Below, piece after piece: positions 2,479-54,797 of a DNA stretch of 64,000 nt. The DNA lies in assembly GCA_030433255.1 (NCBI GenBank), contig JAUIMI010000001.1, forward strand, positions 311,362 through 375,361, in the 5' to 3' direction. The notes beneath the pieces are model-generated. The model did not search any database and was not told the origin of the DNA. It worked only from the letters and a program-made list of their open reading frames with translations. Source of the stretch: a bacterium. Its GTDB lineage: Bacteria; Patescibacteriota; Minisyncoccia; Phycocordibacterales; UBA1006. Numbering within the stretch: the stretch's first letter is position 1; every line of letters begins with the position of its first letter. A program made the position numbers and the translations under genes.

Positions 2479-2493
2479 TGTTGTGCGACGTTA
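2479..2493. repeat. left copy (attL-like) of a perfect 15-bp direct repeat TGTTGTGCGACGTTA
   Basis: The 15-mer is identical to the one at 19203..19217. It lies inside a short imperfect palindrome (TAACGTCG ... CGACGTTA) and sits 180 bp from an integrase pseudogene. Confidence 0.55.
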
Positions 2494-2675: not shown

Positions 2676-3170
2676 TTACGAAGCCTGAAGTAGAACATCC
2701 CTCAATTTTAAGGCTTCCAATAATGAAGAGTCCAAGGTTAATGTTGGTTTGTTTTGGTTCAAATTGGATACTTCAGACTGTTGCCCTCCTTTTCTAGACA
2801 TATACTTTCCTGCCAATTCCTGATGACGGTTCGCACATAAATGTGTATAAGTAAATGAAGATTCAGGTTTTACATGTCTCAGAATCACCGAGACGTCTCT
2901 CATATTACCTCCCTGTTCTAAAATGCTATTCGCCTTGCCATGCCTAAAGCTGTGCGGTGTATAATTCTTGTCGATATTGGCATCTTCACACAGTAATTTC
3001 ATCCAACGTTGTACACTTCGCTGCGTGAATGGTTTCTTCGTTTTTGGATTAATCAAAAGTTCATCATGGTCAGTATCGAACCCTAGCCGTATCCCTAAAT
3101 AAATATTGAGCAAGAGAAGAGTAAATACAGCGATAGCTTCGAATTTGAAATAATTAAAGCCTATAACGAA
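2676..3170 (-). pseudogene. tyrosine recombinase / phage-type integrase, N-terminally disrupted
   Basis: The C-terminal catalytic region contains HSFRHG (the HxxR box) and a tyrosine in FTYTHL. A box I-like LNIYLGIRLG is present. The frame begins with TTG and an in-frame stop lies about 20 codons upstream. No core-binding domain can be recovered upstream. Confidence 0.6.
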
Positions 3171-3679: not shown

Positions 3680-6600
3680 CTAATTCAATGATGTAACTCC
3701 ATCTAATGCCACTCCAGAAAGAGCATTTAAATGCCCTGCGGTTTCAGGTCCAATAATTCCATCAAGGATTAAGTTATTAGCTTGTTGGTATGAACGAATA
3801 CCTGCGTAGGTAAGCCCTCCGTAAATACCATCAAATGGTCCAATGGAATGGCCAAGTGAAGCAATACATTCTTGTGCTTGACGTATGTCATTTCCTGTCA
3901 TTCCTCGTTTGATTAATCGTCTGTAATTGATGAAACATTTGGCATCTTCTACAACAGGAGTTGATTCTACTTCTATTACTTCTTTCCCACAACTATTGTT
4001 AATCAATGATCTTGTAATTGGTCCAACATATCCGTCCTGAGTTGTACCTAGATATGCTTGCATACGTTTAATAGCTCCGTCAGTAATTGGTCCCAAGATC
4101 CCATCTACTTTCCCTGATGCAAACCCTAATCTATTCATATGTGCTTGAAGAATTTTAACTTCCGTTATGGTTTCATTTTCCCATGATGAGAAGCTTCCGT
4201 TGCGGTCTCCTACTTTCATGTTTTGATTTAGTATTTGAGATGATGGACATTGTTCCCCTTTTCCAAGCTCTTCAGAAACAGGAGTTCCAAAAATTTCTGC
4301 TAACTTTTCTTTTGATACACGCCTTGAACTTCCTTTTGAAGTTGAAGTCGTAGCATCATCATCCGTTAGCGTTACGATATGTGCTTGGTCAGCAACCGCA
4401 TCATACTCATCAGCACTTGCAGCAGCATTGATGCTAGCGGTGATACTTGCGGTGTCGGTTTGCACAAGGTCATCGTCAACACCTGTGACGGTAACCGTTT
4501 GAGGTGTATCCCAGTTTGCTGGTGTAAAGGTCAGTGAGCTTGGTGATACCGTTGCTTCGTTGGTGTCACTTGAACTCAGGTCGATGACAACATCTGAGGT
4601 TGGTTCAGCATCAAGCACAATGGTGTAGCTTGCTGTTCCTGCGTTTTCTGAAGCTGTTGATGTGTTTGATGATTGAGTGAAATCAGCCATATCATCATCA
4701 GTGATGATAATTGAAGCGGTTGCATCTGCTACCCCATCATAGGTATCATCAGAGGCAGCATCATTTACCGAAATCGTAAGTGTAGCTGAGTCATCACGGT
4801 CAAGATCATCGTTAACTGCTGTTACGGTGATGGTTTGGTTGACGTTCCAGTTACCTGTAGTAAAAGTCAGTGAACTTGGCGAGACGGTGGCTTCCCCAGT
4901 GTCACTTGAACTCAGGTCGATGACAACATCAGTAAGTGGCTGTGAACCCAACCGAACATTGAAACTCCCAGTTCCTGCATTTTCAAGAATGGTTAATCCA
5001 GTTGTGGTAATTCCACTTGGGTCGATGATAATAGAAGCGGCATCATCATCCGTTAGCGTTACGATATGTGCTTGGTCAGCAACCGCATCATACTCATCAG
5101 CACTTGCAGCAGCATTGATGCTAGCGGTGATACTTGCGGTGTCGGTTTGCACAAGGTCATCGTCAACACCTGTGACGGTAACCGTTTGAGGTGTATCCCA
5201 GTTTGCTGGTGTAAAGGTCAGTGAGCTTGGTGATACCGTTGCTTCGTTGGTGTCACTTGAACTCAGGTCGATGACAACATCTGAGGTTGGTTCAGCATCA
5301 AGCACAATGGTGTAGCTTGCTGTTCCTGCGTTTTCTGAAGCTGTTGATGTGTTTGATGATTGAGTGAAAGAAGTAACCACATTTACAATACGTGTTACTT
5401 CGATAGCATCATTTCCAGCCGCATCAGCTACATTATATGTGATAGTGTAACTACCAAGAGTGGATGTATCTACTGGATTTACAGTTACAATATTTACTGT
5501 GATATCTCCATCAAGATTATCTGTTGCAGCCGCTCCAGCATCTGAATATGGAGTATTTACAGGGACTGTTACAGGGTCACTCCCTGTAAGTGTTATAACA
5601 GGGGGTGTTGTATCTTGTAACCATAGTCTATTTTGAAAATCACCATTATCCCCATTGACTACGTAAACATCAATTTCCCCATCATTGTTTACGTCCCCAG
5701 TTGTAACCCCAAATGATTCCCCAGTATCTCCTGTAATGTTGTTTTGTGTAAAGTTTCCAGATCCATCATTTTCCCAAATAATATTCTGAAAACCAAAATA
5801 CATTGCAATAAGGATATCCAAATCACCATCACCATCAAAATCAACAATTTCTGAATCTTGAGCAGTACCTCCATAGTCATTAGCGATATTTTGAGAGGCA
5901 AATGTCCCATCATTATTATTTATCCAAAACCGATTTAGATTAACAGGTTGGTCATCATAGTATGAGGTTAGGTATAAATCAATATCATTATCACCATCTA
6001 TGTCACCGACAACTACTGAACGACCTGGGCAACCATTATTTTGATCCGTACATATATCACCAGTTATGTTACCACTTACAAAAGTTCCATCCCCATTTCC
6101 GAGCCATAATTTGTTCTGGTTATTATACGCTGCTCGTGAAGCGTAAATGTCTAGGTTTCCATCGTTATTAAAATCAGCCATTGCTACATCATCAGCAATA
6201 CCATCTCCTGAAATACTTCCATCAATGAAATTCCCAGTCCCATCATTTATCCAAAGAACATTGGTTCCGCCACTAAATGCTCCTACATAAATATCTAAAT
6301 CGCCATCATTATCAACATCGCCAATAACAACCGAACTAGACCGAGAAGTTGTTGAGTCAGCTGGAATATCGGCATTTGTAAATGTACCATCTCCATTTCC
6401 AAGCCATAGTTTATTTTTACTAAAACTATTGGTGACATAGATATCCAAATTCCCATCACCGTTAAGGTCTGCCATAGCTGCATCGGTAGTGTTTCCTTGG
6501 TCATCACCTAGAATATCAGAATTGGTAAAAGTTCCATCCCTATTTCCGATCCATAATTTATTTTGCTCTAATCGAGCACCTACATATATGTCTAAGTTTC

Positions 6601-6742
6601 CATCGTTGTTAACGTCACCCATTATGGCTGAACGTGAATTTCCTAAATCATTAGGAATATCTTGTGAAACGAATTCGGCATAAGCGCCTTGAGCACTAAA
6701 AGCAAGCGCAAGTAATAAAATAATCTTTGTATAATACTTCAT
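3680..6742 (-). CDS. large secreted FG-GAP/VCBS beta-propeller adhesin-like protein with Ig-like repeats and two C-terminal peptidoglycan-binding domains
   Basis: A signal peptide is present. There are seven or more D-x-N-x-D-G-x-L-D-I-Y-V calcium-binding FG-GAP repeats, a HYR/Ig-like segment, three beta-sandwich repeats of about 110 aa (two identical) and two PG_binding_1-like modules at the C-terminus. Confidence 0.8.
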   Translation of the reverse strand: MKYYTKIILLLALAFSAQGAYAEFVSQDIPNDLGNSRSAIMGDVNNDGNLDIYVGARLEQNKLWIGNRDGTFTNSDILGDDQGNTTDAAMADLNGDGNLDIYVTNSFSKNKLWLGNGDGTFTNADIPADSTTSRSSSVVIGDVDNDGDLDIYVGAFSGGTNVLWINDGTGNFIDGSISGDGIADDVAMADFNNDGNLDIYASRAAYNNQNKLWLGNGDGTFVSGNITGDICTDQNNGCPGRSVVVGDIDGDNDIDLYLTSYYDDQPVNLNRFWINNNDGTFASQNIANDYGGTAQDSEIVDFDGDGDLDILIAMYFGFQNIIWENDGSGNFTQNNITGDTGESFGVTTGDVNNDGEIDVYVVNGDNGDFQNRLWLQDTTPPVITLTGSDPVTVPVNTPYSDAGAAATDNLDGDITVNIVTVNPVDTSTLGSYTITYNVADAAGNDAIEVTRIVNVVTSFTQSSNTSTASENAGTASYTIVLDAEPTSDVVIDLSSSDTNEATVSPSSLTFTPANWDTPQTVTVTGVDDDLVQTDTASITASINAAASADEYDAVADQAHIVTLTDDDAASIIIDPSGITTTGLTILENAGTGSFNVRLGSQPLTDVVIDLSSSDTGEATVSPSSLTFTTGNWNVNQTITVTAVNDDLDRDDSATLTISVNDAASDDTYDGVADATASIIITDDDMADFTQSSNTSTASENAGTASYTIVLDAEPTSDVVIDLSSSDTNEATVSPSSLTFTPANWDTPQTVTVTGVDDDLVQTDTASITASINAAASADEYDAVADQAHIVTLTDDDATTSTSKGSSRRVSKEKLAEIFGTPVSEELGKGEQCPSSQILNQNMKVGDRNGSFSSWENETITEVKILQAHMNRLGFASGKVDGILGPITDGAIKRMQAYLGTTQDGYVGPITRSLINNSCGKEVIEVESTPVVEDAKCFINYRRLIKRGMTGNDIRQAQECIASLGHSIGPFDGIYGGLTYAGIRSYQQANNLILDGIIGPETAGHLNALSGVALDGVTSLN
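4354..4682. repeat. intragenic direct repeat, copy 1 (about 329 bp, identical to 5041..5369)
   Basis: Read by eye, the nucleotide sequence is identical to copy 2, offset by 687 bp (229 codons), inside the 3680..6742 CDS. Confidence 0.85.
5041..5369. repeat. intragenic direct repeat, copy 2 (about 329 bp, identical to 4354..4682)
   Basis: Same evidence as copy 1. The domain copy between the two (about 4700..5040) is diverged. Confidence 0.85.
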
Positions 6743-6857: not shown

Positions 6858-7352
6858 ATGAAACAATTATTTCTTCTAGTATTGGTATTTTTCTCTATTA
6901 CAGTGCAAGCTCAAGTTGGGCTAGGTACCAACACCCCAGACCCTAATTCTATATTGGATTTAACAAGTAACAATAAGGGATTGCTTATCCCTCGAATGCT
7001 AACTAGTGATCGTTTAGCTATTACATCACCACCAAACGGGTTAATCGTATTTGATGTTGATACCAATGGCATATGCTATTTTTCCTCTACTTTGGATTGG
7101 GTTTGCATTGATGCAGAGTCTACTAATGGATGGGTGCAATCTGTTGATGGCACAACACCAGCAAGTGATGCAACTCAATCCATTGAGCGTTCTGGTGACC
7201 TAGAAATTTCAACCACAAGTTTTCAGATTAGTATCTCTGAGTCAGGTGGGATTACACTCAAAAACACCTCAAGTAATTCAAGTATAGAAATACAAAGCGA
7301 CGGTAAGATAAAGATGACCGGAGCAAGTGGAAGTTTTGTATACATTAATTAG
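6858..7352 (+). CDS. secreted hypothetical protein
   Basis: A signal peptide (MKQLFLLVLVFFSITVQAQ) is present. A conserved N-terminal block VGLGTNTPDPNSILDL..GLLIPRM..DRLAI..P.NGLIVFDVDTN resembles a motif I recall from Bacteroidetes surface proteins, but the family identity is uncertain. Confidence 0.5.
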   Translation: MKQLFLLVLVFFSITVQAQVGLGTNTPDPNSILDLTSNNKGLLIPRMLTSDRLAITSPPNGLIVFDVDTNGICYFSSTLDWVCIDAESTNGWVQSVDGTTPASDATQSIERSGDLEISTTSFQISISESGGITLKNTSSNSSIEIQSDGKIKMTGASGSFVYIN

Positions 7353-7450
7353 TTGAAAATTGAATTTAGAAAAGCCCTTACACTCGTATAGGCTTTTTTT
7401 TAAATTACTTAAAGGACATTTAATACAAGGATTACAATATCTAAAGGACA

Positions 7451-7490
7451 TTTAAAAACAGGCTATTTTTAAGTAGCCTGTTTGTTATTT
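7451..7490. terminator. bidirectional terminator between the convergent genes 6858..7352 and 7493..8863
   Basis: The hairpin ACAGGCTA-tttttaag-TAGCCTGT is flanked by an A-run and a T-rich run. A second, weaker hairpin lies at about 7371..7402. Confidence 0.5.
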
Positions 7491-7492
7491 AG

Positions 7493-8863
7493 TTAACGTA
7501 TAATTAATTTTTTAGATATTATCTTGTTGCTTGTAAGTATACTCACATGATACATTCCAGATGATAGATTAGGTAATTGTAAGCTTGTATTATCCGCCAA
7601 TAAACTACTATCATAATAAGCCATGGTTTTACCCAATGGATTATAGATAGTCACCTCTTGTATTGTAATAGCTTCGGGTAAGATAAAATGTATCTCTGTT
7701 GTTGCAGGATTTGGATATAAACGAATACTGTCAGTGGAGTCCTCAATATCTGAAACTCCCAAAGTAGCTTCATTTATGACATACATCTCAGTGATTAATT
7801 CATTTTCATATTGACCAACACCAATGTTGCCAGAAGTTAAGAGAACATTTGAAACTATCCCTTGATAAGGCATCTTTACAATAACGGATGAACCATATGC
7901 TCTATCAGCCGGAATAAAATTAGGATCTAGCGTCAAATTTGAGCCAGTATCGATGTAAATTCCTGCACTGGGATTCGGTTGTGATTGAAAACCAGCTACA
8001 TAATAGTCAAAACTTCCATCACTATTAAAATCATGTTCAAGAATATTAGCCTGTATATGATTAGGAATTACACTCGAACTTAACTCCGTAACACCATCTG
8101 AATCCACAAAATAAATATCAGATGTGTTGTTGTTAGTTTTAAGAATATACCTTCCAAATTCATTAAACACCAAAATGGTATCTGAACCCAATAAGCCTCT
8201 TGTACCTCTCAAGACATTATACGTGCCATTGTTGTTGCTAACCATAACATAACAATTATTATTCACATCATTGTTTGGTGTTGAGTTAAGAGAACTGGTA
8301 TCATCTACTATTTTTGTAAAGAATCCATTGGAATTTTCATAAATAATAGAACGTAAACGAAAACTTGCATCACGACCACTTGTTCGTAAATCAAGATCGC
8401 CATCATTATCAACATCGAAAAAATCAGCTATAACATCGTAAAGTCCAATGAGGTTTTGGGATACATTGTACCCTCCATTCCCGTCATCCATACGAATTTC
8501 TGCAAAAGGATTTGAATTGGGCAAATTAAGATTTGGCGTACCGATAATAAGAATATCTGGACCATACAGCCCATCAAGATCAGCCTGAAGTATTTTTCCA
8601 TACCCCACATCTGGCAATGTTCCCGTCTGAGCAAACATGTCATTTGTGTCATCAAAGTCGTAAATGCGAGTCCCAAGAATAGAATTATCCTCTATTCCAT
8701 ATCCGATTAATCGATTATGTAAACCATCTCCGTTAGTGTCGATAGGTAGAAATTCTCCTTTGACAGGAACGAGATTGTGCTGAATAGTTCCATAATTTAG
8801 TTGAGCACACACATTGAAAATAGGTGCAATTGCCATCATCAAAAACAAAATAATTTTTTTCAT
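7493..8863 (-). CDS. secreted FG-GAP-like repeat protein with a T9SS (Por) C-terminal sorting domain
   Basis: A signal peptide is present. Calcium-binding D-x-D-x-D-G repeats occur (FDVDNDGDLDL). The C-terminal 75 aa (LYPNPATTEIHF ... GMYHVSILTSNKIISKKLIIR) matches the type IX secretion CTD pattern. Confidence 0.7.
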   Translation of the reverse strand: MKKIILFLMMAIAPIFNVCAQLNYGTIQHNLVPVKGEFLPIDTNGDGLHNRLIGYGIEDNSILGTRIYDFDDTNDMFAQTGTLPDVGYGKILQADLDGLYGPDILIIGTPNLNLPNSNPFAEIRMDDGNGGYNVSQNLIGLYDVIADFFDVDNDGDLDLRTSGRDASFRLRSIIYENSNGFFTKIVDDTSSLNSTPNNDVNNNCYVMVSNNNGTYNVLRGTRGLLGSDTILVFNEFGRYILKTNNNTSDIYFVDSDGVTELSSSVIPNHIQANILEHDFNSDGSFDYYVAGFQSQPNPSAGIYIDTGSNLTLDPNFIPADRAYGSSVIVKMPYQGIVSNVLLTSGNIGVGQYENELITEMYVINEATLGVSDIEDSTDSIRLYPNPATTEIHFILPEAITIQEVTIYNPLGKTMAYYDSSLLADNTSLQLPNLSSGMYHVSILTSNKIISKKLIIR

Positions 8864-9037
8864 CTTTTTAAATTTTAAGGTTTATTTGATTTGATATTAC
8901 CATGAACTCTTTCTTTTTACTATAAACTGAAAAAGCCTAACACTATATGATTATATATTTACAGGATAACTGTATATTCCCTTGCTTTGTTCAAACACTT
9001 GTTTTAGTTTAGCTTTCATCCATAAAACAAAGAATAC

Positions 9038-10978
9038 ATGAAAAAGCGAGTTGGCGTGTGGATACGAGTTTCCACAAAATTACAGCAGAATTCAGATAGC
9101 CCTGAACATCATTTGCAAAAAGCAAAAATGTACGCAGAGCTAAAAGATTGGGATATTGTAGAAGAGTACCACTTAGAAGCTGTTAGCGGCAAAAGCGTGA
9201 TGGAACACCATGAAGCCCAGCGTATGATGCGAGATATTCAAAGTGGTCATATTGAAGGTTTGATCTTCTCGAAGATTGCCCGCTTTGCTCGTAACGTAAA
9301 AGAACTTTTGGAATTCTCAAAACACTTTCAAAAGTATAAGGGAGATATGATTTCCTTGAGTGAATCTATAGATACCAGTACACCTTCTGGTCGCTTTTTC
9401 TTCACCATGATTTCTGCTATGGGTCAGTGGGAACGTGAAAATATTGTTGAACGTATTAAATCATCTGTAGAAGTCAGAGCCAAAATGGGAAAAATAATGG
9501 GTGGTATTCCATTTGGGTATAAACGAGTAGGTAAAGATGATATGGCACTTGATGAACACGAAGCTCCAATTCGTAAAATGATGTTTGACTTGTTTTTGGA
9601 GCATGAACGGCATGCAACCGTAGCCAACATTCTTAACGAAAAAGGATATCGCACCAAACGAAAAAGTAAATTCACCGGTACTACGGTTAAACGACTATTA
9701 CAAGACCCAACTGCAAAAGGTATTAGACGTTCTCATTGCACTAAGATAGATGAAAATGGAAAAACCGTAATGAGGGATAAGTCGGAATGGTACATCCACG
9801 AAGCACCACGAATCGTATCAGACGAAGTATGGGACACCGTAAATGATATTATCCGTAAACAGGAAAAAGAAAAGGTACAACCATTAAATAAAAAGGTGCA
9901 TTTGTTTACAAGCTATTTATTTTGTGAATGCGGTGGCGGTATGTATGTGCCATCGTCAAACCCAAAATACACTTGTAAGAAGTGTAAACGCAAAATCCAT
10001 GTCGAAGATATTGAAGCGATCTTTAAAGAACAGCTCACCGAGTTCATCATTTCAGAAGAAGAAGTAAAACGTTACTTTAATGGCACACACACCATCATCA
10101 GAGAAAAGCAACAAGAGATTGAAAATGTGAAATCAGAAATACTAAAACTTGAAGATAAGATTGAAAAGCTATTTGAACTTCACGAAAAAGGGCAAATTGA
10201 GACTGATAGATTTAAAGATTTCTACGATAAACCAAACAACCAAGTGCAACAATTAAAACTCAGAATCCCACGAATTGAAGGCGAAATCTATGCCTTGAAA
10301 GACCAATTTAAATCAAGTGGATATATTATTGAAGAAGCTCGTTCGTTATATGAAAACTGGCATAAACTCACCAAAAGGCAAAAACGTAACATCATAGAAA
10401 TCATTACCGAAAAGATAGTGGTATCAGAGCAGGAAGTGAACATCACACTTAACTATATTCTTCCAAAGACACCATCTTTGAAAACGACTGCAAATGGTAC
10501 TCATGGACTATACTCAATGAGTACCATTTGCAGTTTTAAACTGAAACCAAAGTTACGCAAAATACCTAAAGCAAAACCCTTTACCCACTCACTTGGAGAG
10601 TACATCCGACACGAAAGGCTAAAAAAGCACATTTCACAAGAAGCATTAGCAAAACAGTTTGGTGTTAATGGAGTTGCTTTATCTATGTGGGAACTAAAAC
10701 GTAAGCCAGTACATCCAAAACGTTTTCAATCGGTGATTGATTTTCTTGATTACGTTCCTAAAAAGTCATCGAAGTTTGATAAGCTAGGAACACGCACTCA
10801 ATTATGGCGATTACAAAATGAGGTGAGCCTCCAAGAGTTTTCAGAATTGGTACATGTTCCCATAGAAGAAATTACACGAATAGAAACAGCTAGATATTGT
10901 AAAATTGACAGTAAGGTATCTGAAATCATCAACGCATTCATCAAACACTCTATTTCTTCCCACGAAGTGCTTTCATAA
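9038..10978 (+). CDS. large serine recombinase (resolvase/invertase N-terminal domain, recombinase domain and zinc ribbon) with a C-terminal HTH extension
   Basis: The N-terminal VGVWIRVSTKLQ carries the serine nucleophile context. A Cys4 zinc ribbon (CECGGG ... CKKCKRK) and coiled-coil segments follow. One or two XRE-like HTH motifs sit at the C-terminus (ISQEALAKQFGVNGVALSMWE). Confidence 0.85.
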   Translation: MKKRVGVWIRVSTKLQQNSDSPEHHLQKAKMYAELKDWDIVEEYHLEAVSGKSVMEHHEAQRMMRDIQSGHIEGLIFSKIARFARNVKELLEFSKHFQKYKGDMISLSESIDTSTPSGRFFFTMISAMGQWERENIVERIKSSVEVRAKMGKIMGGIPFGYKRVGKDDMALDEHEAPIRKMMFDLFLEHERHATVANILNEKGYRTKRKSKFTGTTVKRLLQDPTAKGIRRSHCTKIDENGKTVMRDKSEWYIHEAPRIVSDEVWDTVNDIIRKQEKEKVQPLNKKVHLFTSYLFCECGGGMYVPSSNPKYTCKKCKRKIHVEDIEAIFKEQLTEFIISEEEVKRYFNGTHTIIREKQQEIENVKSEILKLEDKIEKLFELHEKGQIETDRFKDFYDKPNNQVQQLKLRIPRIEGEIYALKDQFKSSGYIIEEARSLYENWHKLTKRQKRNIIEIITEKIVVSEQEVNITLNYILPKTPSLKTTANGTHGLYSMSTICSFKLKPKLRKIPKAKPFTHSLGEYIRHERLKKHISQEALAKQFGVNGVALSMWELKRKPVHPKRFQSVIDFLDYVPKKSSKFDKLGTRTQLWRLQNEVSLQEFSELVHVPIEEITRIETARYCKIDSKVSEIINAFIKHSISSHEVLS

Positions 10979-13900
10979 TAATATTAGTTATCGAAGCCTG
11001 CTTATTGGTGTCATTGTCTGTTTTGTAATCCACGTTTACACGGTAGCCACGTACACGCTTTACTTTGGTTTTTGGTTGAATTAAGGCATCAAGATACAGC
11101 AGTAATTCTTCAGATTTGAAGAAGTGGATTTTTAAGTGTTGTTTTTTAGAAATATTCTTTAAGGCTTGTTCCTTGATATTCTTAAGATGCTTTTCGTCCT
11201 CTGAAATCATATATACCAAAGAGTAGTTATCATCCAAGCACTTTTGAATATTTTGTACTTCATAATCTACTCTATTAGTTACTGAAATTTCAATGGCAAT
11301 ACGAATATCATCTTTTAACAGCGATACATCAACTTTGCCACCATTTAATGTTGAATCTTCAAGTGTTGCCTTAAACCCTCGCTGGAGAGCCATAGAACGA
11401 ATGTAATTTTGAATTGAACGATGCTGACGGACAATCTCCTGTTCTTCGGCTTGTTGTAAGTATTTTTCTTTACGAGCTTCTAAATCATCAGTCTTTTCTA
11501 AATTTTCAGTTTTTGGAGATGGTTTTGTTTCAGTAATGGGCTTTTCAACTTCACTTTTCTTATCTTCAACAATTACGGGTTCAACAGATTTTTCAATTTT
11601 GGGTTCTGTTGTTTTAGTTTTGAGTTTAGTCTTTTGGGGTGTTTGCTTAGGAAGCAAGGAAGCTAACAACTCATCAAGTTCTGCTTTAGATTTGCTGTAG
11701 CTTTTTCTTGTATGAGCAACAATACTATCTCTATTTACTTCGGCATTAGTTTCAGCTATAGACAATGGAAAGGTTGAAATATTAAAATCATCACTTGAAG
11801 AACCTACGCGCATAATGGCTTGTCCGATACCGAGACTCTGTAAATCATCTTGCTCAAAATATGAAAAACCAGACTCCAATCGTTTCGCATCGCTATCGCC
11901 TAGACGAAAACAAATCCGTGTTTTTGGATTTGATAAAACAGAGTTCAACAATTTTGCATCTTCAATTTGAGCCAATTCTTGATGAGCAATGGTAATACCT
12001 AAACCATATTTTCTAGCACCACTTAATATACGTTCAATACTTGGTGTGATGAAATTTTGGAACTCATCTAGGTATAACATAAAAGGTTTACGGCTATCCT
12101 TACCTTTAGATTGCCTTGCCAATGCCGATTGATTAAATTTTGCCAAGAACAATGAGCCTAATAAATAGGAATTCTGTTCTCCAATAAGGCCTTGCGATAA
12201 TTTCAGTAAAACAATTTTGTTGGTATTAAGGCAATTTGCTACATCAACACCTTTGTTTTGAGCTAACATATAGCGCACCAATTTTGGACGTAAAAATGTA
12301 TCTATACGAGTAAGTAGTGGTGCAATACCTTTTCGTACCAAAGGATATTCATTATTCCAATAGTAATGTAACGAAGGGTCGTTGACCGTTTTTAAGTATT
12401 GAACTCTATAAGGTTCTTCAAGTAGAAAACGCTTTAATTCAATAAGCGTTCCACCTTGAGTGCTCTCTAACATGGTATTTACAGCGTTTTGCAATACCGC
12501 AGTCATATTATCTCCCCAAGCAGTGGCATGACGTTTAAATGCCGAAACTAAATCTGATGAGAGTACAATTTTTTCAGCATCGGTATGCGCTTCTAATAGA
12601 TTGAATCCAATAGGGAAGTCAGCATCGGAAGGGTCTATTAAAACTACATCATTAATCCTGTTTTCTGGAATACGCTCTAAAATATCATCAATGATGTCGC
12701 CATGTGGATCGAACATAGCACAACCCATTCCATTTTCAATATCGGCAAGCATCATATTTGCCAGTAGAGTACTTTTACCAACGCCTGTGGCTCCTATTAC
12801 GTGTGTATGGGACAAACGTGTTTCATAGCTTAATTGAACAGGAATATCTTCTTGATTATGGGTATTGACTCCAATTAGGATGCCTTGATTGTCCTTTTGG
12901 TGTATACGTTTGGTTTTACCAACTTGCCATTGTAGTTTTTTAGAAACCACCGTTTTATTGGGATAGTGCAAAAAGGTATTCAGTTCCTTGGAATTCAATA
13001 CAAAGCCCAATCGGTTACTGAGGCGATGATGTAGATTGTATTTATGGAAATCATAATCATACCCTTCATTGGATAAAGGGATGAGTTTGTTATGCTGAGA
13101 GGTTGAAACTGCCGAAATACTTCGTGCTAACTCTTGTGCCAGATACTGACTCCTGTAATTGTCCTTGCCTTGAGTAGCTATACGCATCACCACTGAAAAT
13201 AGTGGATGTGCTATTTTTTCTTTGGCACACTGTGGCATTTCAGGAGCATCCGAAAAAAAAGAACCGCCAGCACCATCATTTACCGAATACATTGTATCCT
13301 TTGCTAAAGGAGAACTAATACCTTTAAACAGAATTTGAAAAACAGCAACATCATCATCCTGCAAAGCTTCCATAGTTGCGATGACTGAAGTTAATGGGTC
13401 TATGTTAAAAGAATCAGACGTAACTATGCTTCGCATATATTCACTATTAAGCCCAAAGTCTGCAATAGCGATATCATTTTTGTTTGAAAATCCAAAATCA
13501 TCAACTTCAATAGTTTTAATTATAACCATTGGAAAGTATGCCGATAATTGCGATTTCAATCTGCCTCTATCCTGTTTACTACATACCATTTGAATTTGGA
13601 TAGTATCTGAATTACCAATAATTTCAAAGGACAGTAAATGTTCTGTAAAGGATAGTAGATTGAGAAGTTCGATATTCCTGCTTGGATTGATTTCAGTCCC
13701 ATACGGAAAGGAAATTGAGAGACCAACAAGTTGAGGCTTTTCTGAAACTTCAAGAAAACGAGGTTTAACCTCTATTAAATCTTCTTCTGGTTCTTCTTCT
13801 TTAGGAGGAGCAAGTAATTTGGTTACTTGTTTGAATAATGAAGGTGCTCTACCATCATCTTGTATTGAAGGTCGGTTTTGGCTTACATGCTGAAAGGGAA

Positions 13901-14009
13901 CATAGGGAACCTCAATATCAATAGGAGTATCGAAATTGTAATACCCACGAAATCGATACTCCCAATTATAGAAATTAAGGGTTGCTTGTTCACTTCTTGT
14001 TAAACCCAT
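10950..14009 (-). CDS. FtsK/HerA/TrwB-superfamily P-loop ATPase (DUF87 or type IV coupling-protein-like) with an unknown 400-aa N-terminal domain, a K/E/P-rich linker and a C-terminal possible nuclease-like domain
   Basis: Walker A GATGVGKST is present, then FDPHGD, Walker B LYLDEFQNF and an AHQ motif. No TM helices are evident. The C-terminal roughly 120 aa show a D...E-I-S pattern weakly reminiscent of PD-(D/E)xK folds. Confidence 0.65.
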   Translation of the reverse strand: MGLTRSEQATLNFYNWEYRFRGYYNFDTPIDIEVPYVPFQHVSQNRPSIQDDGRAPSLFKQVTKLLAPPKEEEPEEDLIEVKPRFLEVSEKPQLVGLSISFPYGTEINPSRNIELLNLLSFTEHLLSFEIIGNSDTIQIQMVCSKQDRGRLKSQLSAYFPMVIIKTIEVDDFGFSNKNDIAIADFGLNSEYMRSIVTSDSFNIDPLTSVIATMEALQDDDVAVFQILFKGISSPLAKDTMYSVNDGAGGSFFSDAPEMPQCAKEKIAHPLFSVVMRIATQGKDNYRSQYLAQELARSISAVSTSQHNKLIPLSNEGYDYDFHKYNLHHRLSNRLGFVLNSKELNTFLHYPNKTVVSKKLQWQVGKTKRIHQKDNQGILIGVNTHNQEDIPVQLSYETRLSHTHVIGATGVGKSTLLANMMLADIENGMGCAMFDPHGDIIDDILERIPENRINDVVLIDPSDADFPIGFNLLEAHTDAEKIVLSSDLVSAFKRHATAWGDNMTAVLQNAVNTMLESTQGGTLIELKRFLLEEPYRVQYLKTVNDPSLHYYWNNEYPLVRKGIAPLLTRIDTFLRPKLVRYMLAQNKGVDVANCLNTNKIVLLKLSQGLIGEQNSYLLGSLFLAKFNQSALARQSKGKDSRKPFMLYLDEFQNFITPSIERILSGARKYGLGITIAHQELAQIEDAKLLNSVLSNPKTRICFRLGDSDAKRLESGFSYFEQDDLQSLGIGQAIMRVGSSSDDFNISTFPLSIAETNAEVNRDSIVAHTRKSYSKSKAELDELLASLLPKQTPQKTKLKTKTTEPKIEKSVEPVIVEDKKSEVEKPITETKPSPKTENLEKTDDLEARKEKYLQQAEEQEIVRQHRSIQNYIRSMALQRGFKATLEDSTLNGGKVDVSLLKDDIRIAIEISVTNRVDYEVQNIQKCLDDNYSLVYMISEDEKHLKNIKEQALKNISKKQHLKIHFFKSEELLLYLDALIQPKTKVKRVRGYRVNVDYKTDNDTNKQASITNIIMKALRGKK

Positions 14010-14014
14010 GTCAT

Positions 14015-14599
14015 CTATCTGATAAATACATCATTTAACATAGGCTTACGCTCTGCCTCACTGATAGAGCGGATTCCTTTATCGTTGGTAATGTCATCAA
14101 TGACTTTTAACACCGAAGATTGAGCGTAGCTCATAAACATACTGGCAGTATCTATCCTGTAATAGGTTACTGGATACAATTTTCTTGCAAGCCAACCACC
14201 TATAAATGGAATTTTAGCAACCAATATCTTGCCAATGGAATCTTTATACAATAACCACCAAGACACGAAAAAGCCATGACCAAACTTGGCTCCACAAATA
14301 TCATATTGGTAATCTTTCCATATAGCTCGTAAATAGATGCGAGAATGAGACATCGCTCCTCCTTCTTTAATGAATTTTTCTTTGATATTGATTTTTGTAA
14401 TGCCGTGAGATTCCAGTTCGGTTTTTAATAAGGCATAAAACTCTTTAGGTGAGTATTCAAAGTTATCAATAAGGGTACTCCACCGTGAGTGATAGTTTTT
14501 TCTGGTTTTACTGAAAATAAATCTTAAAACTAGAAAAGCAACAATTCCAGCTAGGACATACATCCCATATTTTGTTAGATAAAAAGTGAATTCATTCAT
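14015..14599 (-). CDS. hypothetical membrane-anchored protein
   Basis: It has a single N-terminal TM helix. It lies 5 bp upstream of the ATPase gene and 26 bp downstream of the AlaX-like gene on the same strand. Confidence 0.45.
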   Translation of the reverse strand: MNEFTFYLTKYGMYVLAGIVAFLVLRFIFSKTRKNYHSRWSTLIDNFEYSPKEFYALLKTELESHGITKINIKEKFIKEGGAMSHSRIYLRAIWKDYQYDICGAKFGHGFFVSWWLLYKDSIGKILVAKIPFIGGWLARKLYPVTYYRIDTASMFMSYAQSSVLKVIDDITNDKGIRSISEAERKPMLNDVFIR

Positions 14600-18044: not shown

Positions 18045-18350
18045 ATGTTATGTTTTATCTTGCAATTGCTATTAATCATGTTTCCTATGAACTCATTACC
18101 CTTTGAGATTCTCTTTGAAGTTCTCGGCAATCGTATTCGTGATCTTCGACAATCAAAAAAGCTTTCACAAATTGAAGTAGCAGCAAGATGTGGACTGGAC
18201 GTTTCTAACTATAATAAAATTGAATTTAACAAAAGGCCACCATCACTACGTACGCTATTTAAAATTGCCATTGCTCTAGATGAACCTATCTCTAATTTCT
18301 TTAATGATGAAGTGTTTCTCTCATTTATCGAAGAACATGTGAAAGCTTAA
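18045..18350 (+). CDS. XRE-family helix-turn-helix transcriptional regulator
   Basis: HTH_3 signature LSQIEVAARCGLDVSNYNKIE is present. The likely true start is an internal Met at about 18087 (MNSLPFEIL). Confidence 0.7.
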   Translation: MLCFILQLLLIMFPMNSLPFEILFEVLGNRIRDLRQSKKLSQIEVAARCGLDVSNYNKIEFNKRPPSLRTLFKIAIALDEPISNFFNDEVFLSFIEEHVKA

Positions 18351-18572
18351 TAAAAATGTTGTTTTTAATAAATCAGTCTATCAAGTCTAAAGTTGTAATC
18401 TCATTAAATAGCTTTTAAATATGCTTGCTTTTTGGTTCTAGCAGTATTGTGTAGCAATGGCATTAAGTAAGTATTAGGCTAATGTCCACAGATATACTTT
18501 AAATTCTATTTTTTTAATTACGAAACCAAAAAAAAGCGTTAGCTTTTTAAAACAGCCAAACCAAAGAGATAG

Positions 18573-18899
18573 CTATAACCAGCTATCTCTTTGTAATTGC
18601 TTTCGTTCTTGTTCCTGTTTTATTTGTTCTATTCGGATATGGTCTGGAATGCGTTCATTTGCGTTGTACTTTGGTAAAGAAATTTCTTTTGTAGAACGCA
18701 TTTTTTGCGTTTCGAATTGTGAATGAGATATCCAGTCCCGTCGCTTAACCTTTCCAAACTCATCTCGCCATCCCAAAAGATTCCTCACAATCTTAAGATA
18801 CACACGCACCGCAGATCCACTCATACTTCCAATATGCTTATCAAAAAAAGCATTAGGCACTGGAGTCGTATTATTCAGTCGCATGAGCTTCAAAATCAA
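18573..18899 (-). CDS. truncated phage/plasmid replisome-organiser-like protein (N-terminal winged-helix domain only)
   Basis: VPNAFFDKHIGSMSGSAVRVYLKIVRNLLGW resembles Phage_rep_org_N/DnaD-like N-domains. It is only 108 aa. A 12-bp stem hairpin (AAAGAGATAGCT ... AGCTATCTCTTT) overlaps its 3' end. Confidence 0.35.
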   Translation of the reverse strand: MILKLMRLNNTTPVPNAFFDKHIGSMSGSAVRVYLKIVRNLLGWRDEFGKVKRRDWISHSQFETQKMRSTKEISLPKYNANERIPDHIRIEQIKQEQERKQLQRDSWL

Positions 18900-19197
18900 T
18901 TACTGGTAAATTATCATTATGATTTGGAAAGATCATAAAATTAGTATCTGGTTGATGATACAACTGTAAAAACCAACCGCCGTTGTTGGTTACTTTTACA
19001 ACACCTACTTTATGATAAATATGTTTGTCGTTATCAACCTTATTAACAGTTTTACGAGTAACAACGTTATAAAATTTAGTCATACTAAAATTCAATTTTA
19101 TGTACGTTTTAACCTTAGGGAAAACCCAATACAAATCAAAATCGAAAATATTTTGTTTCAATAGAAAGTCGCAAAACCCTTGACTTTTGTCGGACAA
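18871..19197 (-). CDS. hypothetical protein
   Basis: The ORF shows no similarity I can recognise. It is adjacent to the right-hand repeat. Confidence 0.3.
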   Translation of the reverse strand: MSDKSQGFCDFLLKQNIFDFDLYWVFPKVKTYIKLNFSMTKFYNVVTRKTVNKVDNDKHIYHKVGVVKVTNNGGWFLQLYHQPDTNFMIFPNHNDNLPVIDFEAHATE

Positions 19198-19202
19198 GTA
19201 GT

Positions 19203-19217
19203 GTTGTGCGACGTTAT
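19203..19217. repeat. right copy (attR-like) of the 15-bp direct repeat TGTTGTGCGACGTTA
   Basis: The 15-mer is identical to the one at 2479..2493. Confidence 0.55.
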
Positions 19218-19435: not shown

Positions 19436-19879
19436 CTATTTTTTCTCTATTACTAAAAATAGCTGGCTCTTTGTGTTGTATGCTTCGAGGGTTAAGGTAT
19501 ACTTGCCTGCCTCTTTGAATGCGTACTTCTCTTTATATAAGGTGTTGGGTGTATTTAAGTGTAACTGCTCGTGTACAGCTCTTATAATTTCTTTTAAACC
19601 TAGCGCATGATATAGAGAACCTTTTTCATTTAATTTCTCTCTTATGGTTATGGTTTTACCATTAATCAGGGATAGTGTTGTTTCTATTTTTTCCTGTTCC
19701 TTTTCTGCCTTATTAAGAGCAGCTGTTTTTGCTTGTTTGATTTTATTTAATGCTGTATTGGTAGCAACCTTTGCCAAACCTTTCGGGATAAGAGAGTTTT
19801 GAGCGTATCCATCTGAAACTTCAACAACCTCTCCTTTTTTACCAATACCTTTTATATGCTGTGTTAAAATAATTTTCAT
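19436..19879 (-). CDS. rplI: 50S ribosomal protein L9
   Basis: MKIILTQHIKGIGKKGEVVEVSDGYAQNSLIPKGLA is the canonical L9 N-domain. The length of 147 aa fits. Confidence 0.85.
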   Translation of the reverse strand: MKIILTQHIKGIGKKGEVVEVSDGYAQNSLIPKGLAKVATNTALNKIKQAKTAALNKAEKEQEKIETTLSLINGKTITIREKLNEKGSLYHALGLKEIIRAVHEQLHLNTPNTLYKEKYAFKEAGKYTLTLEAYNTKSQLFLVIEKK

Positions 19880-28263: not shown

Positions 28264-28356
28264 AATGTTTTTATTTTTTGTATTTATTTAATTAAAACAT
28301 AATTTTATTAAATAACAAAATTAAATAAAATAACTTCCATATTGGAAGTTATTTTA

Positions 28357-29034
28357 TTAAACTTTGTAATCATAGTTAGTTATTTTTCCATCTTCAAGAT
28401 AAATAATTCTATCACAGTATTTTGTATACTCTGGTTCGTGTGTCACCATTACAATAGTCTGACCTTTTTTATGTAATTCATGAAGTAATTCTATGACTTG
28501 TTTTGATGATGTTGAATCCAAGTTAGCAGTTGGTTCATCAGCAAATAAAATTTCTGGTTGTTGTACAATTGCACGAGCCACTGAAACTCGTTGTTGTTGG
28601 CCACCAGAAAGTTGGTTTGGCCTATTAGAATATTTCCCTTTCATGTCGATTGAATCAATTATGGTACGAGCTTTTTCTTTAGCTTTCTCATATGGTACAC
28701 CTTGCATAATTAATGGAATTGCAACATTTTCTTCTGCTGTTAATTCCGGAACAAGCGCGTAATCTTGAAAAATATATCCTAACTTACGTAAACGAAAATC
28801 TGTCCGTTCTGTTTCTGATAATTTTAAAATATCAATTTCATTAACGGCTATTGCACCAGTTGTTGGTTTATCTAATAAACTTATCTGATACAGTAACGTT
28901 GATTTCCCGGCTCCAGATTTACCCATAATAGCGATAAATTCTCCTGTATTAATTTCTAAATCAATACCCTTGAGTACTGGTGTTACTATTTCACCATTTA
29001 TATATGTTTTTGTGAGATTTTTTACAGTAATCAT
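28357..29034 (-). CDS. ABC transporter ATP-binding protein (MacB/LolD-like)
   Basis: Walker [10 protein letters not shown], the signature LSGGQQQRV and Walker B ILFADEPT are present. Confidence 0.85.
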
Positions 29035-54743: not shown

Positions 54744-54797
54744 TTTTTAAGGTTAGTTTTGTTTAGAATTTTTTATAAATAAAACTAACCTTAAAAA
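54744..54797 (+). promoter_or_regulatory. 5'-UTR stem-loop with a perfect 17-bp inverted repeat
   Basis: TTTTTAAGGTTAGTTTT (54744..54760) and AAAACTAACCTTAAAAA (54781..54797) are separated by a 20-nt loop. The structure ends 10 nt before the ATG at 54808. Confidence 0.45.

What the first reader, a model, noticed from the sequence alone, without database searches (positions are those of the whole stretch)
9038..10978. Intact large serine recombinase carrying an unusual C-terminal extension with one or two XRE-like HTH motifs
Canonical large serine recombinases end with the zinc-ribbon and coiled-coil domain. This 646-aa protein has a further roughly 150 aa after that module. The extension contains ISQEALAKQFGVNGVALSMWELKR and a second HTH-like stretch (VSLQEFSELVHVPIEEITRIE). 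A built-in regulatory or DNA-binding tail could couple recombination directionality or autoregulation to the recombinase itself. The gene converges on the ATPase operon with a 29-bp overlap, and the recombinase is intact whereas the tyrosine integrase at the island edge is dead.
Basis: partly seen in the sequence, partly recalled or inferred. Interest (0 to 1): 0.5.

Follow-up and report, generated by a model that had tools for sequence, protein, structure and literature searches.

The report
Serine integrase gene spanning its attP
The 646-aa "recombinase with an HTH tail" is real, but it is the unrecombined form of an integrase whose DNA attachment site probably lies inside its own gene, so integration would split off the double-HTH tail as a separate protein and excision would re-fuse it.

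Summary
The ORF (9038-10978, 646 aa), its 29-bp convergent overlap with the ATPase gene and its tail are confirmed. The tail holds two XRE-type HTH domains.

The tail is not a fixed oddity of this protein. The nearest recombinase relatives (79-92% identity) stop at residue 491. The nearest tail relatives (64-90%) are free-standing proteins of about 150 aa.

The two homology tracts meet at a 48-bp near-perfect palindrome (10487-10534) inside the ORF and overlap only in TATA. Elsewhere the recombinase half abuts at least 8 different outside sequences, and the HTH half at least 6. In one 393-kb MAG contig the two halves lie about 48 kb apart, in the orientation expected of an integrated element. 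Long and short forms interleave on the recombinase tree and diverge at this same codon in other clades.

Best reading: attP lies in a flexible linker of the integrase ORF. Integration would split the gene into a 491-aa integrase and a 153-aa HTH protein. The window keeps the fused state because its 16.7-kb island entered through a tyrosine-integrase site (15-bp repeats).

I found no published precedent for serine integrases. What the toggling does functionally is untested.

The parts
8971..9037 (+). Conserved upstream region of the recombinase gene, probably its promoter and 5' UTR. This is the left limit of homology with all recombinase-only loci.
   Evidence: BLASTN homology with L001, L005, L006, L018, L019 and L020 starts at window 8971-9003. 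Sequences further upstream differ in every locus.
9038..10978 (+). The 646-aa fused ORF: serine integrase core, linker, and two XRE-type HTH domains. I read this as the form made in the attP (unrecombined) state.
   Evidence: A second, independent fused locus (L019) is 92% identical over residues 1-646, with continuous 77.6% nucleotide homology across recombinase, HTH gene and ATPase.
9038..10510 (+). Canonical large-serine-recombinase core, residues 1-491: catalytic domain 8-152, recombinase domain 173-274, four-Cys zinc ribbon around 289-331, coiled coil around 340-439.
   Evidence: Pfam. Invariant R10, S12, R82, R85 and C296/C298/C313/C316. AF2 secondary structure. Relatives at 79-92% identity end at residue 491.
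10487..10534 (.). 48-bp near-perfect palindrome, ACTGCAAATGGTACTCATGGACTA|TACTCAATGAGTACCATTTGCAGT. This is the inferred attP (P and P' arms). It encodes residues 484-499 (TANGTHGL|YSMSTICS).
   Evidence: The arms are 22/24 complementary with no spacer. It is the only zero-spacer palindrome of that strength in the 64-kb window and the only one inside an ORF. The half-site occurs nowhere else in the window. The same palindrome is present in L019, and analogous palindromes sit at the same codon in the long-form genes of L027 and L028. It lies in an AF2 segment with pLDDT below 50 (residues 473-514).
10509..10512 (.). TATA, the only bases shared by the recombinase-side and HTH-side homology tracts. 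This is the inferred crossover region. The stop codon of the short recombinases is TA plus A or G from the target; here it reads TAC (Tyr492).
   Evidence: Alignments. Junction tables.
10517..10978 (+). The double-HTH module. In relatives it is a free-standing 143-153-aa gene that starts at this ATG (MSTICSFKLKPK...). HTH unit 1 is about residues 519-570 and unit 2 about 583-645 of the fused protein.
   Evidence: 30 free-standing homologs at 58-90% identity and about 99% coverage. Fold evidence.
10950..14009 (-). 1019-aa TrwB/TraD/HerA-type ATPase, convergent with the HTH module. It travels with the HTH gene, and with recombinases of this family.
   Evidence: Pfam TrwB_AAD_bind, TraG-D_C and DUF87. 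PADLOC mad8-like, E 6.9e-21. The same 25-29-bp convergent overlap is seen in L008-L017 and L019. A homologous ATPase sits next to related recombinases in L021-L025 and L027.
14015..14599 (-). 194-aa protein of unknown function, the third member of the conserved HTH / ATPase / ~190-aa module.
   Evidence: A 182-213-aa ORF follows the ATPase in L007, L008 and L010-L017. No Pfam or PADLOC hit.
2479..2493 (.). Left copy of the 15-bp direct repeat TGTTGTGCGACGTTA. It marks the left border of the 16.7-kb island (tyrosine-integrase-type att).
   Evidence: (family D7). It lies between the EngB-type GTPase gene (1800-2396) and the integrase remnant.
19202..19216 (.). Right copy of the 15-bp direct repeat. 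It marks the right border of the island, just before rplI (19436-19879).
2676..3113 (-). Decayed tyrosine integrase (145-aa remnant) at the island edge.
   Evidence: PF00589 positions 85-169 of 172 only. It is 69% identical at nucleotide level to the intact 314-aa integrase of the JAUICK element.

Best explanation
The ORF is the unrecombined (attP-state) form of a large serine integrase whose attachment site lies inside its own reading frame.

The site is a 48-bp palindrome. It sits in a flexible linker between a complete integrase core (residues 1 to about 475) and a C-terminal module of two XRE-type HTH domains.

Inferred cycle:
1. The integrase recombines this attP with a target. The targets share a loose TA-N4-AT half-site.
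2. The gene is cut within TATA.
3. The core stays at one end of the integrated element and acquires a stop codon: TA from the core plus A or G from the target.
4. The HTH module lands at the opposite end as a free-standing 153-aa gene. It starts at an ATG that is itself part of the half-site motif, and it no longer has the integrase promoter in front of it.
5. Excision re-creates the 646-aa fusion.

In this window the site was never used. The 16.7-kb island entered the chromosome by a separate tyrosine-integrase route, marked by the 15-bp direct repeats. That integrase has since decayed, so the serine integrase stays fused.

What is shown directly:
- The junction anatomy.
- The separate occurrence of the two halves in close relatives.
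- One contig that carries both ends.
- Recurrence of the pattern across the family.

What is inferred:
- That the split and re-fusion cycle actually occurs.
- That the covalent link matters. My preferred guess is that the tail is a DNA-binding or regulatory module delivered 1:1 with the integrase only while the element is unintegrated. On this view integration switches both the integrase's make-up and the regulator's expression, giving an integration-dependent switch that could bias directionality.
For: 1. Recombinase-only loci (L001-L006, L018, L020, L029-L031, L035; 79-93% aa identity) match the window only from about 8971 up to ...CATGGACTATA at about 10512. HTH-only loci (L007-L017) match only from TATACTCAATG... 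onward. The overlap is TATA.

2. The junction is the centre of a 22/24 palindrome with no spacer. It is unique of its kind in the window.

3. The P arm is joined to at least 8 different outside arms and the P' arm to at least 6. An identical HTH protein (P0140) occurs with two different flanks. All 14 outside arms keep T1, A2 and T8, and 11 of 14 keep A7, as the P arms do.

4. Contig JAUICK010000002.1 has the HTH gene with its P' arm at about 322.7 kb and the recombinase with its P arm at about 370.9 kb. They are on the same strand, with the HTH gene reading inward and the recombinase reading outward. Housekeeping-type genes lie outside both junctions. Mobile-type genes (ParE, tyrosine integrase, RadC, Dam methylase, T9SS cargo) lie inside.

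5. Of the 120 best homologs, 31 are long and HTH-tailed and 89 are short. 42 of the short ones stop aligning exactly at residue 491. Long and short forms interleave on the core tree, for example P0049-long with P0077-short at 88% identity. They diverge at the predicted crossover in other clades.

6. The best palindrome in the whole L027 gene, and a strong one in L028 (third-ranked in that gene), lie at codon ~490-491.

7. The ATPase that accompanies the HTH gene also accompanies related recombinases in other arrangements. This points to one element rather than two neighbours.

8. The att-encoded peptide lies in an AF2 linker with pLDDT below 50, residues 473-514.

9. The window island is bounded by 15-bp direct repeats and is a circular permutation of the JAUICK element, opened next to the tyrosine integrase. 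This explains why attP is intact here.
Against: - Only one contig shows both ends together, and I could not read its middle 26 kb.
- I found no empty target site (attB) and no sequence from a circular form.
- Every dinucleotide within TATA is palindromic. In characterised serine integrases a palindromic crossover would not fix orientation.
- Long-form genes also occur on large contigs (L027 is 183 kb). I did not establish whether those are unrecombined for a similar reason, or whether those lineages use a different att site.
- Long forms are detected only when they are in frame, so 'always in frame' is partly an ascertainment effect.
- AF2 gives no confident contact between tail and core (pTM 0.38), so there is no structural hint of regulation.
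- The 15-mer itself is absent from the JAUICK element. Only an analogous, diverged site is present there.
Confidence: 0.75

Rival explanations
1. Fixed domain architecture. This is simply a serine-recombinase subfamily with a permanent C-terminal double-HTH domain. On this view the short relatives and the free-standing HTH genes arose by repeated deletion or gene fission, and the palindrome is an mRNA or DNA hairpin with some other role (attenuator or terminator remnant).
For: 31 long forms exist with collinear, homologous tails. The palindrome would fold strongly as a single strand (-19.6 kcal/mol, z = -9.3). Some long forms sit on large contigs.
Against: Simple fission would leave the two genes adjacent. 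Instead the two halves have unrelated flanks that begin exactly at the palindrome centre, in at least 14 different contexts. Long and short forms interleave at up to 92% core identity, which would require many independent, identically placed losses. The outside arms share the half-site motif.
Confidence: 0.1
2. Accidental read-through. A recombinase-carrying element inserted just upstream of a resident HTH-ATPase module. The junction would then be a hybrid attL/attR site, and the in-frame fusion a meaningless by-product.
For: The stop codon is changed by one base from the neighbouring DNA (TAA to TAC), and the HTH gene keeps its own ATG five bases further on.
Against: A hybrid site should not be a 22/24 palindrome over 24-nt arms. 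HTH-only loci with no recombinase also have unrelated upstream DNA that starts at the same TATAC, so that point is an element end there too. The same fusion exists in L019 and, with about 22% tail identity, throughout a distant part of the family, in frame and collinear. Recombinase and ATPase co-occur in other arrangements. The JAUICK configuration is unexplained by this reading.
Confidence: 0.08
3. Assembly or sequencing artefact: two contigs joined at a short repeat, or a missed stop codon.
For: Metagenome assemblies break repeatedly about 110-180 nt outside the junction.
Against: An independent assembly (L019) carries the same junction within 5 kb of continuous homology. 31 independent long proteins exist. 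The junction sequence is a clean palindrome with no ambiguity.
Confidence: 0.02

Closest known systems
Large serine recombinases / serine integrases (phiC31, Bxb1, A118, SPbeta SprA; CcrB/CcrC and XisF are the nearest NCBIfam models)
   Same: The core has the catalytic domain, recombinase domain, four-Cys zinc ribbon and long coiled coil. The att-like site is about 48 bp with dyad symmetry. The recombinase gene sits at the edge of the element.
   Different: The att site lies inside the recombinase ORF rather than beside it. The protein carries about 150 extra C-terminal residues forming two XRE-type HTH domains. NCBIfam scores are far below the equivalog cut-offs (CcrB 161.7 against 900; XisF 118.5 against 375), so it is not a Ccr or XisF orthologue. 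The inferred crossover lies in a palindromic TATA. There are many target sites with a loose consensus.
SSV-type ('suicidal') tyrosine integrases of archaeal viruses and plasmids
   Same: The recombination site lies within the integrase ORF, so integration partitions the gene and excision reconstitutes it (abstract of PMC7253208; PMC8371274).
   Different: Those are tyrosine recombinases in archaea, and integration destroys the enzyme, leaving two inactive pseudogenes. Here the catalytic and DNA-binding core stays whole and only an accessory HTH module is detached. That module keeps its own start codon.
Integration-dependent immunity of mycobacteriophages (BPs, Brujita, Charlie)
   Same: attP lies inside a regulatory gene, so the protein made differs between the integrated and free states. 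The state of the DNA sets the regulator's form (PMC4557955 and PMC3694055, abstracts).
   Different: There, attP is in the repressor gene, the integrase is a tyrosine recombinase, and integration removes a C-terminal part of the repressor. I recall from memory that this part is a degradation tag; I did not check it here. In the present case the split is between the integrase itself and an HTH protein, and no tag has been examined.
Engineered integrase-RDF fusion proteins (Olorunniji et al. 2017)
   Same: An accessory protein is joined to the C-terminus of a serine integrase through a flexible linker, which changes which att pairs are recombined (PMC5737554).
   Different: Those fusions are man-made. 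In them, fusion favours attL x attR and reduces attP x attB recombination. If the natural tail behaved as an RDF, the fused form would appear in the 'wrong' state. There is no evidence here that the tail is an RDF.
Tn4451 / TnpX (large serine recombinase transposon)
   Same: That would be another case where the joint of the circular form alters the recombinase gene's output.
   Different: There the joint creates a promoter, not a coding fusion, and TnpX has no HTH tail.

Membership tests
Large serine recombinase (LSR) family | N-terminal resolvase-type catalytic domain with the serine nucleophile and conserved arginines | tested here: met
   PF00239 at residues 8-152, E 9.8e-29. R10, S12, R82 and R85 are invariant across 17-65 homologs.
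Large serine recombinase (LSR) family | Recombinase domain (PF07508) followed by a zinc-ribbon domain with an embedded coiled coil | tested here: met
   PF07508 at residues 173-274, E 2.1e-18. PF13408 is only weak (E 0.022, below its cut-off), but the four Cys C296/C298/C313/C316 are invariant. AF2 gives helices 340-383 and 389-439 flanked by beta-strands.
Large serine recombinase (LSR) family | Short (~40-50 bp) att sites with imperfect dyad symmetry and a central 2-bp crossover; attL and attR are hybrids of P and B arms | tested here: met
   48-bp palindrome. 14 hybrid junctions share a half-site motif. The exact dinucleotide is not resolved; it lies within TATA.
Large serine recombinase (LSR) family | Catalyses attP x attB recombination | not testable with these tools
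   This needs an in vivo or in vitro recombination assay.
CcrB / CcrC / XisF equivalogs (NCBIfam) | Whole-protein score above the curated equivalog cut-off | tested here: not met
   CcrB 161.7 bits against 900; CcrC 125.2 against 900; XisF 118.5 against 375.
XRE / Cro-C1 HTH domain (PF01381 and relatives) | Helical HTH fold of the Cro/C1 type with sequence-profile membership (unit 1) | tested here: met
   HTH_3 scores 30.5 bits against a gathering score of 23. P22 C2 repressor at E 3e-7. Foldseek TM 0.77 normalised to the target.
XRE / Cro-C1 HTH domain (PF01381 and relatives) | The same for the second unit (residues ~583-645) | tested here: met
   Pfam is below threshold for the single sequence (HTH_25, E 0.076). 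The family profile hits SinR at 5.6e-5 and CylR2 at 2e-4 over tail positions 88-146. AF2 gives a second four-helix unit with block-mean pLDDT of roughly 84-95 over tail positions 81-140.
SSV-type 'suicidal' integrases | attP within the integrase ORF, so that integration partitions the gene | tested here: met
   This is inferred from comparative junctions, not observed directly.
SSV-type 'suicidal' integrases | Tyrosine recombinase whose catalytic integrity is destroyed by integration | tested here: not met
   The enzyme is a serine recombinase. The 491-aa product retains all core domains.
Recombination directionality factor (the tail acting as an RDF) | Binds the integrase zinc-domain / coiled-coil region and switches the preferred att pair | tested here: inconclusive
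   The monomer AF2 model shows no confident docking (pTM 0.38, linker pLDDT below 50). No multimer prediction or assay was possible.

The most novel reading that the evidence does not exclude
A natural serine integrase family that encodes its recombination state in its own protein. While the element is free, the integrase is covalently tethered to a double-HTH module. After integration the two become separate proteins with separate expression. This fusion and fission would set directionality or timing of integration and excision, and would switch the element's gene programme, without a conventional separately regulated RDF.
Probability: 0.3. Interest if true: 0.85.

Novelty: new variant of a known kind. 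Interest (0 to 1): 0.7.

Why it matters
Directionality control is the central open problem for serine integrases and the main limit on their use as genome-engineering tools. Known systems rely on a separate RDF protein.

A family in which recombination itself adds or removes a C-terminal DNA-binding module from the integrase would be a different, self-contained solution. It would also be the first bacterial, serine-recombinase counterpart of the archaeal 'attP-inside-int' design.

There is a practical consequence as well. Catalogues built from integrated copies (short ORFs) would miss about 150 residues of the protein that actually performs integration. That could matter when such enzymes are tested heterologously.

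The prediction can be tested directly with plasmid recombination assays, using sequences given in this report.

Tried and rejected
- **Recombinase-only mobile cassette.** I asked whether the recombinase gene alone (8971-10512) is a minimal IS-like element. I rejected this. Its left boundary has no P'-like arm, and the half-site occurs only at 10496-10525.
- **Simple stop-codon mutation between adjacent genes.** Rejected, because downstream DNA in the recombinase-only loci is unrelated to the HTH gene.
- **Mixed alignment of fused, core-only and tail-only sequences (A7).** MAFFT misaligned the tail-only rows. I replaced it with artificial core+tail concatenations (A8), used purely to derive search patterns.
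- **Metagenome scan.** It used only two core-derived peptide patterns, so it returned no HTH-side loci and no further contig with both ends.
- **L037.** It looked like a compact element with both ends but has a different architecture.
- **Kordia and Psychroserpens loci.** They have the ATPase next to the recombinase but no tail gene within 10 kb.
- **The 15-mer in JAUICK.** TGTTGTGCGACGTTA is not present in the JAUICK element. Only an analogous, diverged site lies beside its tyrosine integrase.
- **Viral collection scan with the tail profile.** Only two weak generic HTH hits, so there is no sign that the element is a phage.
- **Rfam on the flanks.** Nothing found.
- **Exhaustive search with the tail profile.** The two-HTH unit is widespread, with 1204 representatives at E <= 1e-3, but this did not discriminate between the models.
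- **Literature searches.** Six full-text searches and a term search of Durrant et al. 2022 found no description of a serine integrase with attP inside its ORF. The library covers open-access papers only, so absence is not proof.
Full report

Yes. The ORF at 9038..10978 (+) encodes 646 aa. It overlaps the convergent 1019-aa ORF at 10950..14009 (-) by 29 bp.

Pfam places Resolvase at residues 8-152, Recombinase at 173-274, a weak zinc ribbon at 289-331, and HTH_3 at 523-571 with 30.5 bits against a gathering score of 23. NCBIfam gives only sub-threshold similarity to CcrB, CcrC and XisF.

A second HTH unit is supported by three results:
- A family profile hits SinR and CylR2 with tail positions 88-146, alongside P22 C2 repressor for positions 23-68.
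- An AlphaFold2 model of the tail (mean pLDDT 87.6, pTM 0.73) shows two four-helix units.
- Foldseek's best matches are Cro/C1-type repressors.

The neighbour is a TrwB/TraD/HerA-type ATPase. The tyrosine integrase at 2676..3113 is a 145-aa remnant.

**2. The two halves are separate genes in the closest relatives.**

A search with the whole protein returned two kinds of homolog:
- The closest (50-92% identity) are 491-499 aa and cover only the first 76% of the query.
- A more distant set (41-45% identity) is 631-657 aa and carries a collinear, homologous double-HTH tail.

A search with the tail alone returned 30 proteins. Most are free-standing, 143-155 aa, at 58-90% identity and about 99% coverage, and most begin MSTICSFKLKPK....

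At DNA level, the recombinase-only loci match the window from about 8971 to 10512-10519 and no further. The HTH-only loci match from 10509 onward and continue through the ATPase, with the same convergent overlap.

The short recombinases read GGA CTA TAA (stop). The window reads GGA CTA TAC TCA ATG AGT, which runs in frame into the start codon of the free-standing gene.

**3. The junction is an att-like palindrome.**

Window 10487-10534 is ACTGCAAATGGTACTCATGGACTA|TACTCAATGAGTACCATTTGCAGT. The arms are 22/24 complementary with no spacer, and the centre is exactly where the two homology tracts overlap, at TATA.

The half-site occurs nowhere else in the window. Only two other palindromes in the 64 kb reach 22/24. 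Both are intergenic with 3-4-nt spacers, so they look like terminators.

Across the fetched loci:
- The recombinase-side arm is joined to at least 8 different outside sequences.
- The HTH-side arm is joined to at least 6.
- An identical HTH protein (P0140) occurs with two different flanks.
- Several diverged elements share a homologous outside flank, which points to preferred targets.

All 14 outside arms keep T1, A2 and T8, and 11 of 14 keep A7. This is the same inner motif as the P arms, TA(C/G)TC(A/C)AT. This is the pattern expected for attL and attR junctions of a serine integrase with relaxed target choice. The ATG of the free-standing HTH gene is part of that half-site motif.

**4. Both ends on one contig.**

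In MAG contig JAUICK010000002.1 (393 kb):
- The HTH gene, preceded by the P' arm, lies at about 322.7 kb.
- A recombinase 89-92% identical to the window's, ending in the P arm plus TAA, lies at about 369.4-370.9 kb.
- Both are on the same strand, with the HTH gene reading inward and the recombinase outward.

Outside both junctions are ordinary chromosomal-looking genes. On the left are an ABC transporter, HxlR and a 222-aa gene. On the right are a MATCAP-like gene, a rhodanese-type gene and an ATP-grasp-type gene; the last two I named from their translations only, without a domain search.

Inside are ParE, the ATPase, an intact tyrosine integrase, a second TrwB-like ATPase, RadC, a Dam methylase, T9SS cargo and a TPR regulator.

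That is what an attP x attB product of about 48 kb should look like. Circularising it would recreate the window's fused gene.

**5. The pattern runs through the family.**

- Of the 120 best homologs, 31 are long and 89 short. 42 of the short ones stop aligning at residue 491 exactly. The read-through variants diverge there too.
- On a core-only comparison, long and short forms interleave. Nearest-neighbour pairs include window-long with P0001-short at 92%, P0049-long with P0077-short at 88%, and P0063-long with P0113-short at 80%.
- In those other clades the pairs diverge at the corresponding codon...NETM|KFHSPSV against ...NGTM|SVWLLQPPK*, and ...GQRNL|IPALPFC against ...GQRDF|RGSLNR*.
- In the long-form gene of L027 the best palindrome of the whole gene falls at codon 491. 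In L028 a 16/24 palindrome falls at codon 490, though it ranks third in that gene.
- L019 is a second, independent fused locus with the same 48-bp palindrome.
- The ATPase that accompanies the HTH gene also accompanies related recombinases in other layouts: directly upstream in Kordia and Psychroserpens, and 8 kb away in L027. So recombinase and HTH-ATPase module belong to one element type.

**6. Why the window holds the fused state.**

The recombinase lies in a 16.7-kb island bounded by the 15-bp direct repeat TGTTGTGCGACGTTA (2479-2493 and 19202-19216). The island sits between an EngB-type GTPase gene and rplI, with the decayed tyrosine integrase at its left edge.

Gene order in the island is a circular permutation of the JAUICK element, opened between block X (window 18532-19135) and the tyrosine integrase. 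JAUICK has one analogous but diverged site at that position.

The simplest reading is that this copy integrated through the tyrosine-integrase site. That would leave the serine integrase's attP unrecombined, and hence its ORF fused.

**7. Structure of the fusion.**

The full-length AlphaFold2 model (mean pLDDT 79.7) shows a canonical core whose last strands are at residues 457-471. This is followed by a segment with pLDDT below 50 at residues 473-514, and then the two HTH units.

pTM is 0.38, so no confident contact between tail and core is predicted.

The palindrome encodes residues 484-499, so it lies inside the predicted flexible linker. A linker is a place where a DNA-level constraint can be tolerated in a protein.

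**8. Mechanism, and how far it is supported.**

Shown:
- The junction anatomy.
- The hybrid junctions.
- One example with both ends on one contig.
- Recurrence across the family.

Inferred (confidence about 0.75): attP lies in the ORF, and integration and excision split and re-fuse the gene.

Inferred more weakly (about 0.3): the toggling has a function. In the free state the HTH module would be made 1:1 with, and tethered to, the integrase from the integrase promoter. After integration the integrase would lack the tail, and the HTH gene would depend on outside transcription.

This could bias directionality, or switch the element's gene programme as in integration-dependent immunity.

The engineered integrase-RDF fusions favour attL x attR (PMC5737554). 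That argues against the tail being a conventional RDF, because the fusion here appears in the attP state. A recent paper speculates that C-terminal extensions may replace RDF control (PMC12286644).

**9. Comparison with known systems and novelty.**

- The core is an ordinary large serine recombinase.
- Having attP inside the integrase ORF is known for archaeal SSV-type tyrosine integrases, where integration kills the enzyme (PMC7253208).
- Having attP inside a regulator gene is known for mycobacteriophage integration-dependent immunity (PMC4557955).
- I found no report of either design for serine integrases. That search covered an open-access library only.

I therefore class this as a new variant of a known kind.

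**Caveats:** there is only one contig with both ends, no empty site and no circular joint, the inferred crossover is palindromic, and the status of long forms on large contigs is unresolved.

Noticed in passing
window 10950-14599; L007-L017, L019: The HTH gene, the convergent ~1019-aa TrwB/DUF87 ATPase (mad8-like in PADLOC, E 6.9e-21; from its sequence the C-terminal region looks nuclease-like, which I did not test) and a ~190-aa unknown protein form a conserved three-gene module. Variable cargo follows it. In L014 the cargo is TIR-STING, CD-NTase, ThsB-TIR and a caspase-like protease (CBASS-type defence genes). In L010-L017 it is TPR-HisKA_2 kinases and response regulators.
   Followed up: partly
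L008, L009, L011-L017 (HTH side); L006, L029 (recombinase side): Independent metagenome and genome assemblies end only about 110-180 nt outside the inferred att junction. This suggests population-level polymorphism at these sites (occupied, empty or alternative) that breaks assembly graphs.
   Followed up: partly
L021-L025 (Kordia, Psychroserpens), ATPase 6887-9928 then recombinase from 10001: In these genomes a 50-56%-identical ATPase lies directly upstream of a 43%-identical short recombinase on the same strand. This is a different layout of the same gene pair. The recombinase C-termini again vary right after ...NGQHxG.
   Followed up: partly
L020 10001-11540 (Tenacibaculum ovolyticum DSM 18103, NZ_KE387166.1): The 85%-identical recombinase is split into two ORFs (10001-10705 and 10731-11540), so it is probably a frameshifted pseudogene.
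   Followed up: no
L019 (JALEGN010000004.1, labelled Candidatus Paceibacterota MAG): This contig is 77.6% identical at DNA level to the window across 5 kb and carries Flavobacteriia-type genes. The Paceibacterota label is probably a binning error.
   Followed up: no
window 18045-18350 (+): A second, separate XRE-family gene (101 aa, HTH_3 E 3e-14; resembles C-proteins, CapH and RmrA in PADLOC) lies near the right end of the island.
   Followed up: no
window 3680-6742 (-), repeats 4353-5339: A 1020-aa FG-GAP / peptidoglycan-binding surface protein contains an exact 300-nt internal duplication (4353-4652 and 5040-5339). It lies in a stretch of raised G+C (0.40-0.44, against about 0.33 elsewhere). 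Together with the T9SS-tailed 456-aa protein (7493-8863), it is cargo next to the recombinase. Similar T9SS cargo sits upstream of the recombinase in L005 and L018.
   Followed up: no
window ~28315-28366 and ~54744-54796: Two intergenic 22/24 palindromes with 3-4-nt spacers (centres near 28339 and 54768). They look like strong bidirectional terminators.
   Followed up: no
proteins P0157, P0159, P0170 and others: The tail's HTH unit type also occurs as arrays of 5-11 repeats in proteins of 390-1315 aa, an unusual multi-HTH architecture.
   Followed up: no
L005/L006/L030/L035 right flanks; L008/L011/L014 left flanks: Diverged elements abut homologous outside sequences, each containing a terminator-like hairpin (for example AAAATCCGCGAGGATTTT and GCCAAATCAAAAGATTTGGC). 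These look like preferred integration targets just after terminators. No Rfam family matches them.
   Followed up: partly
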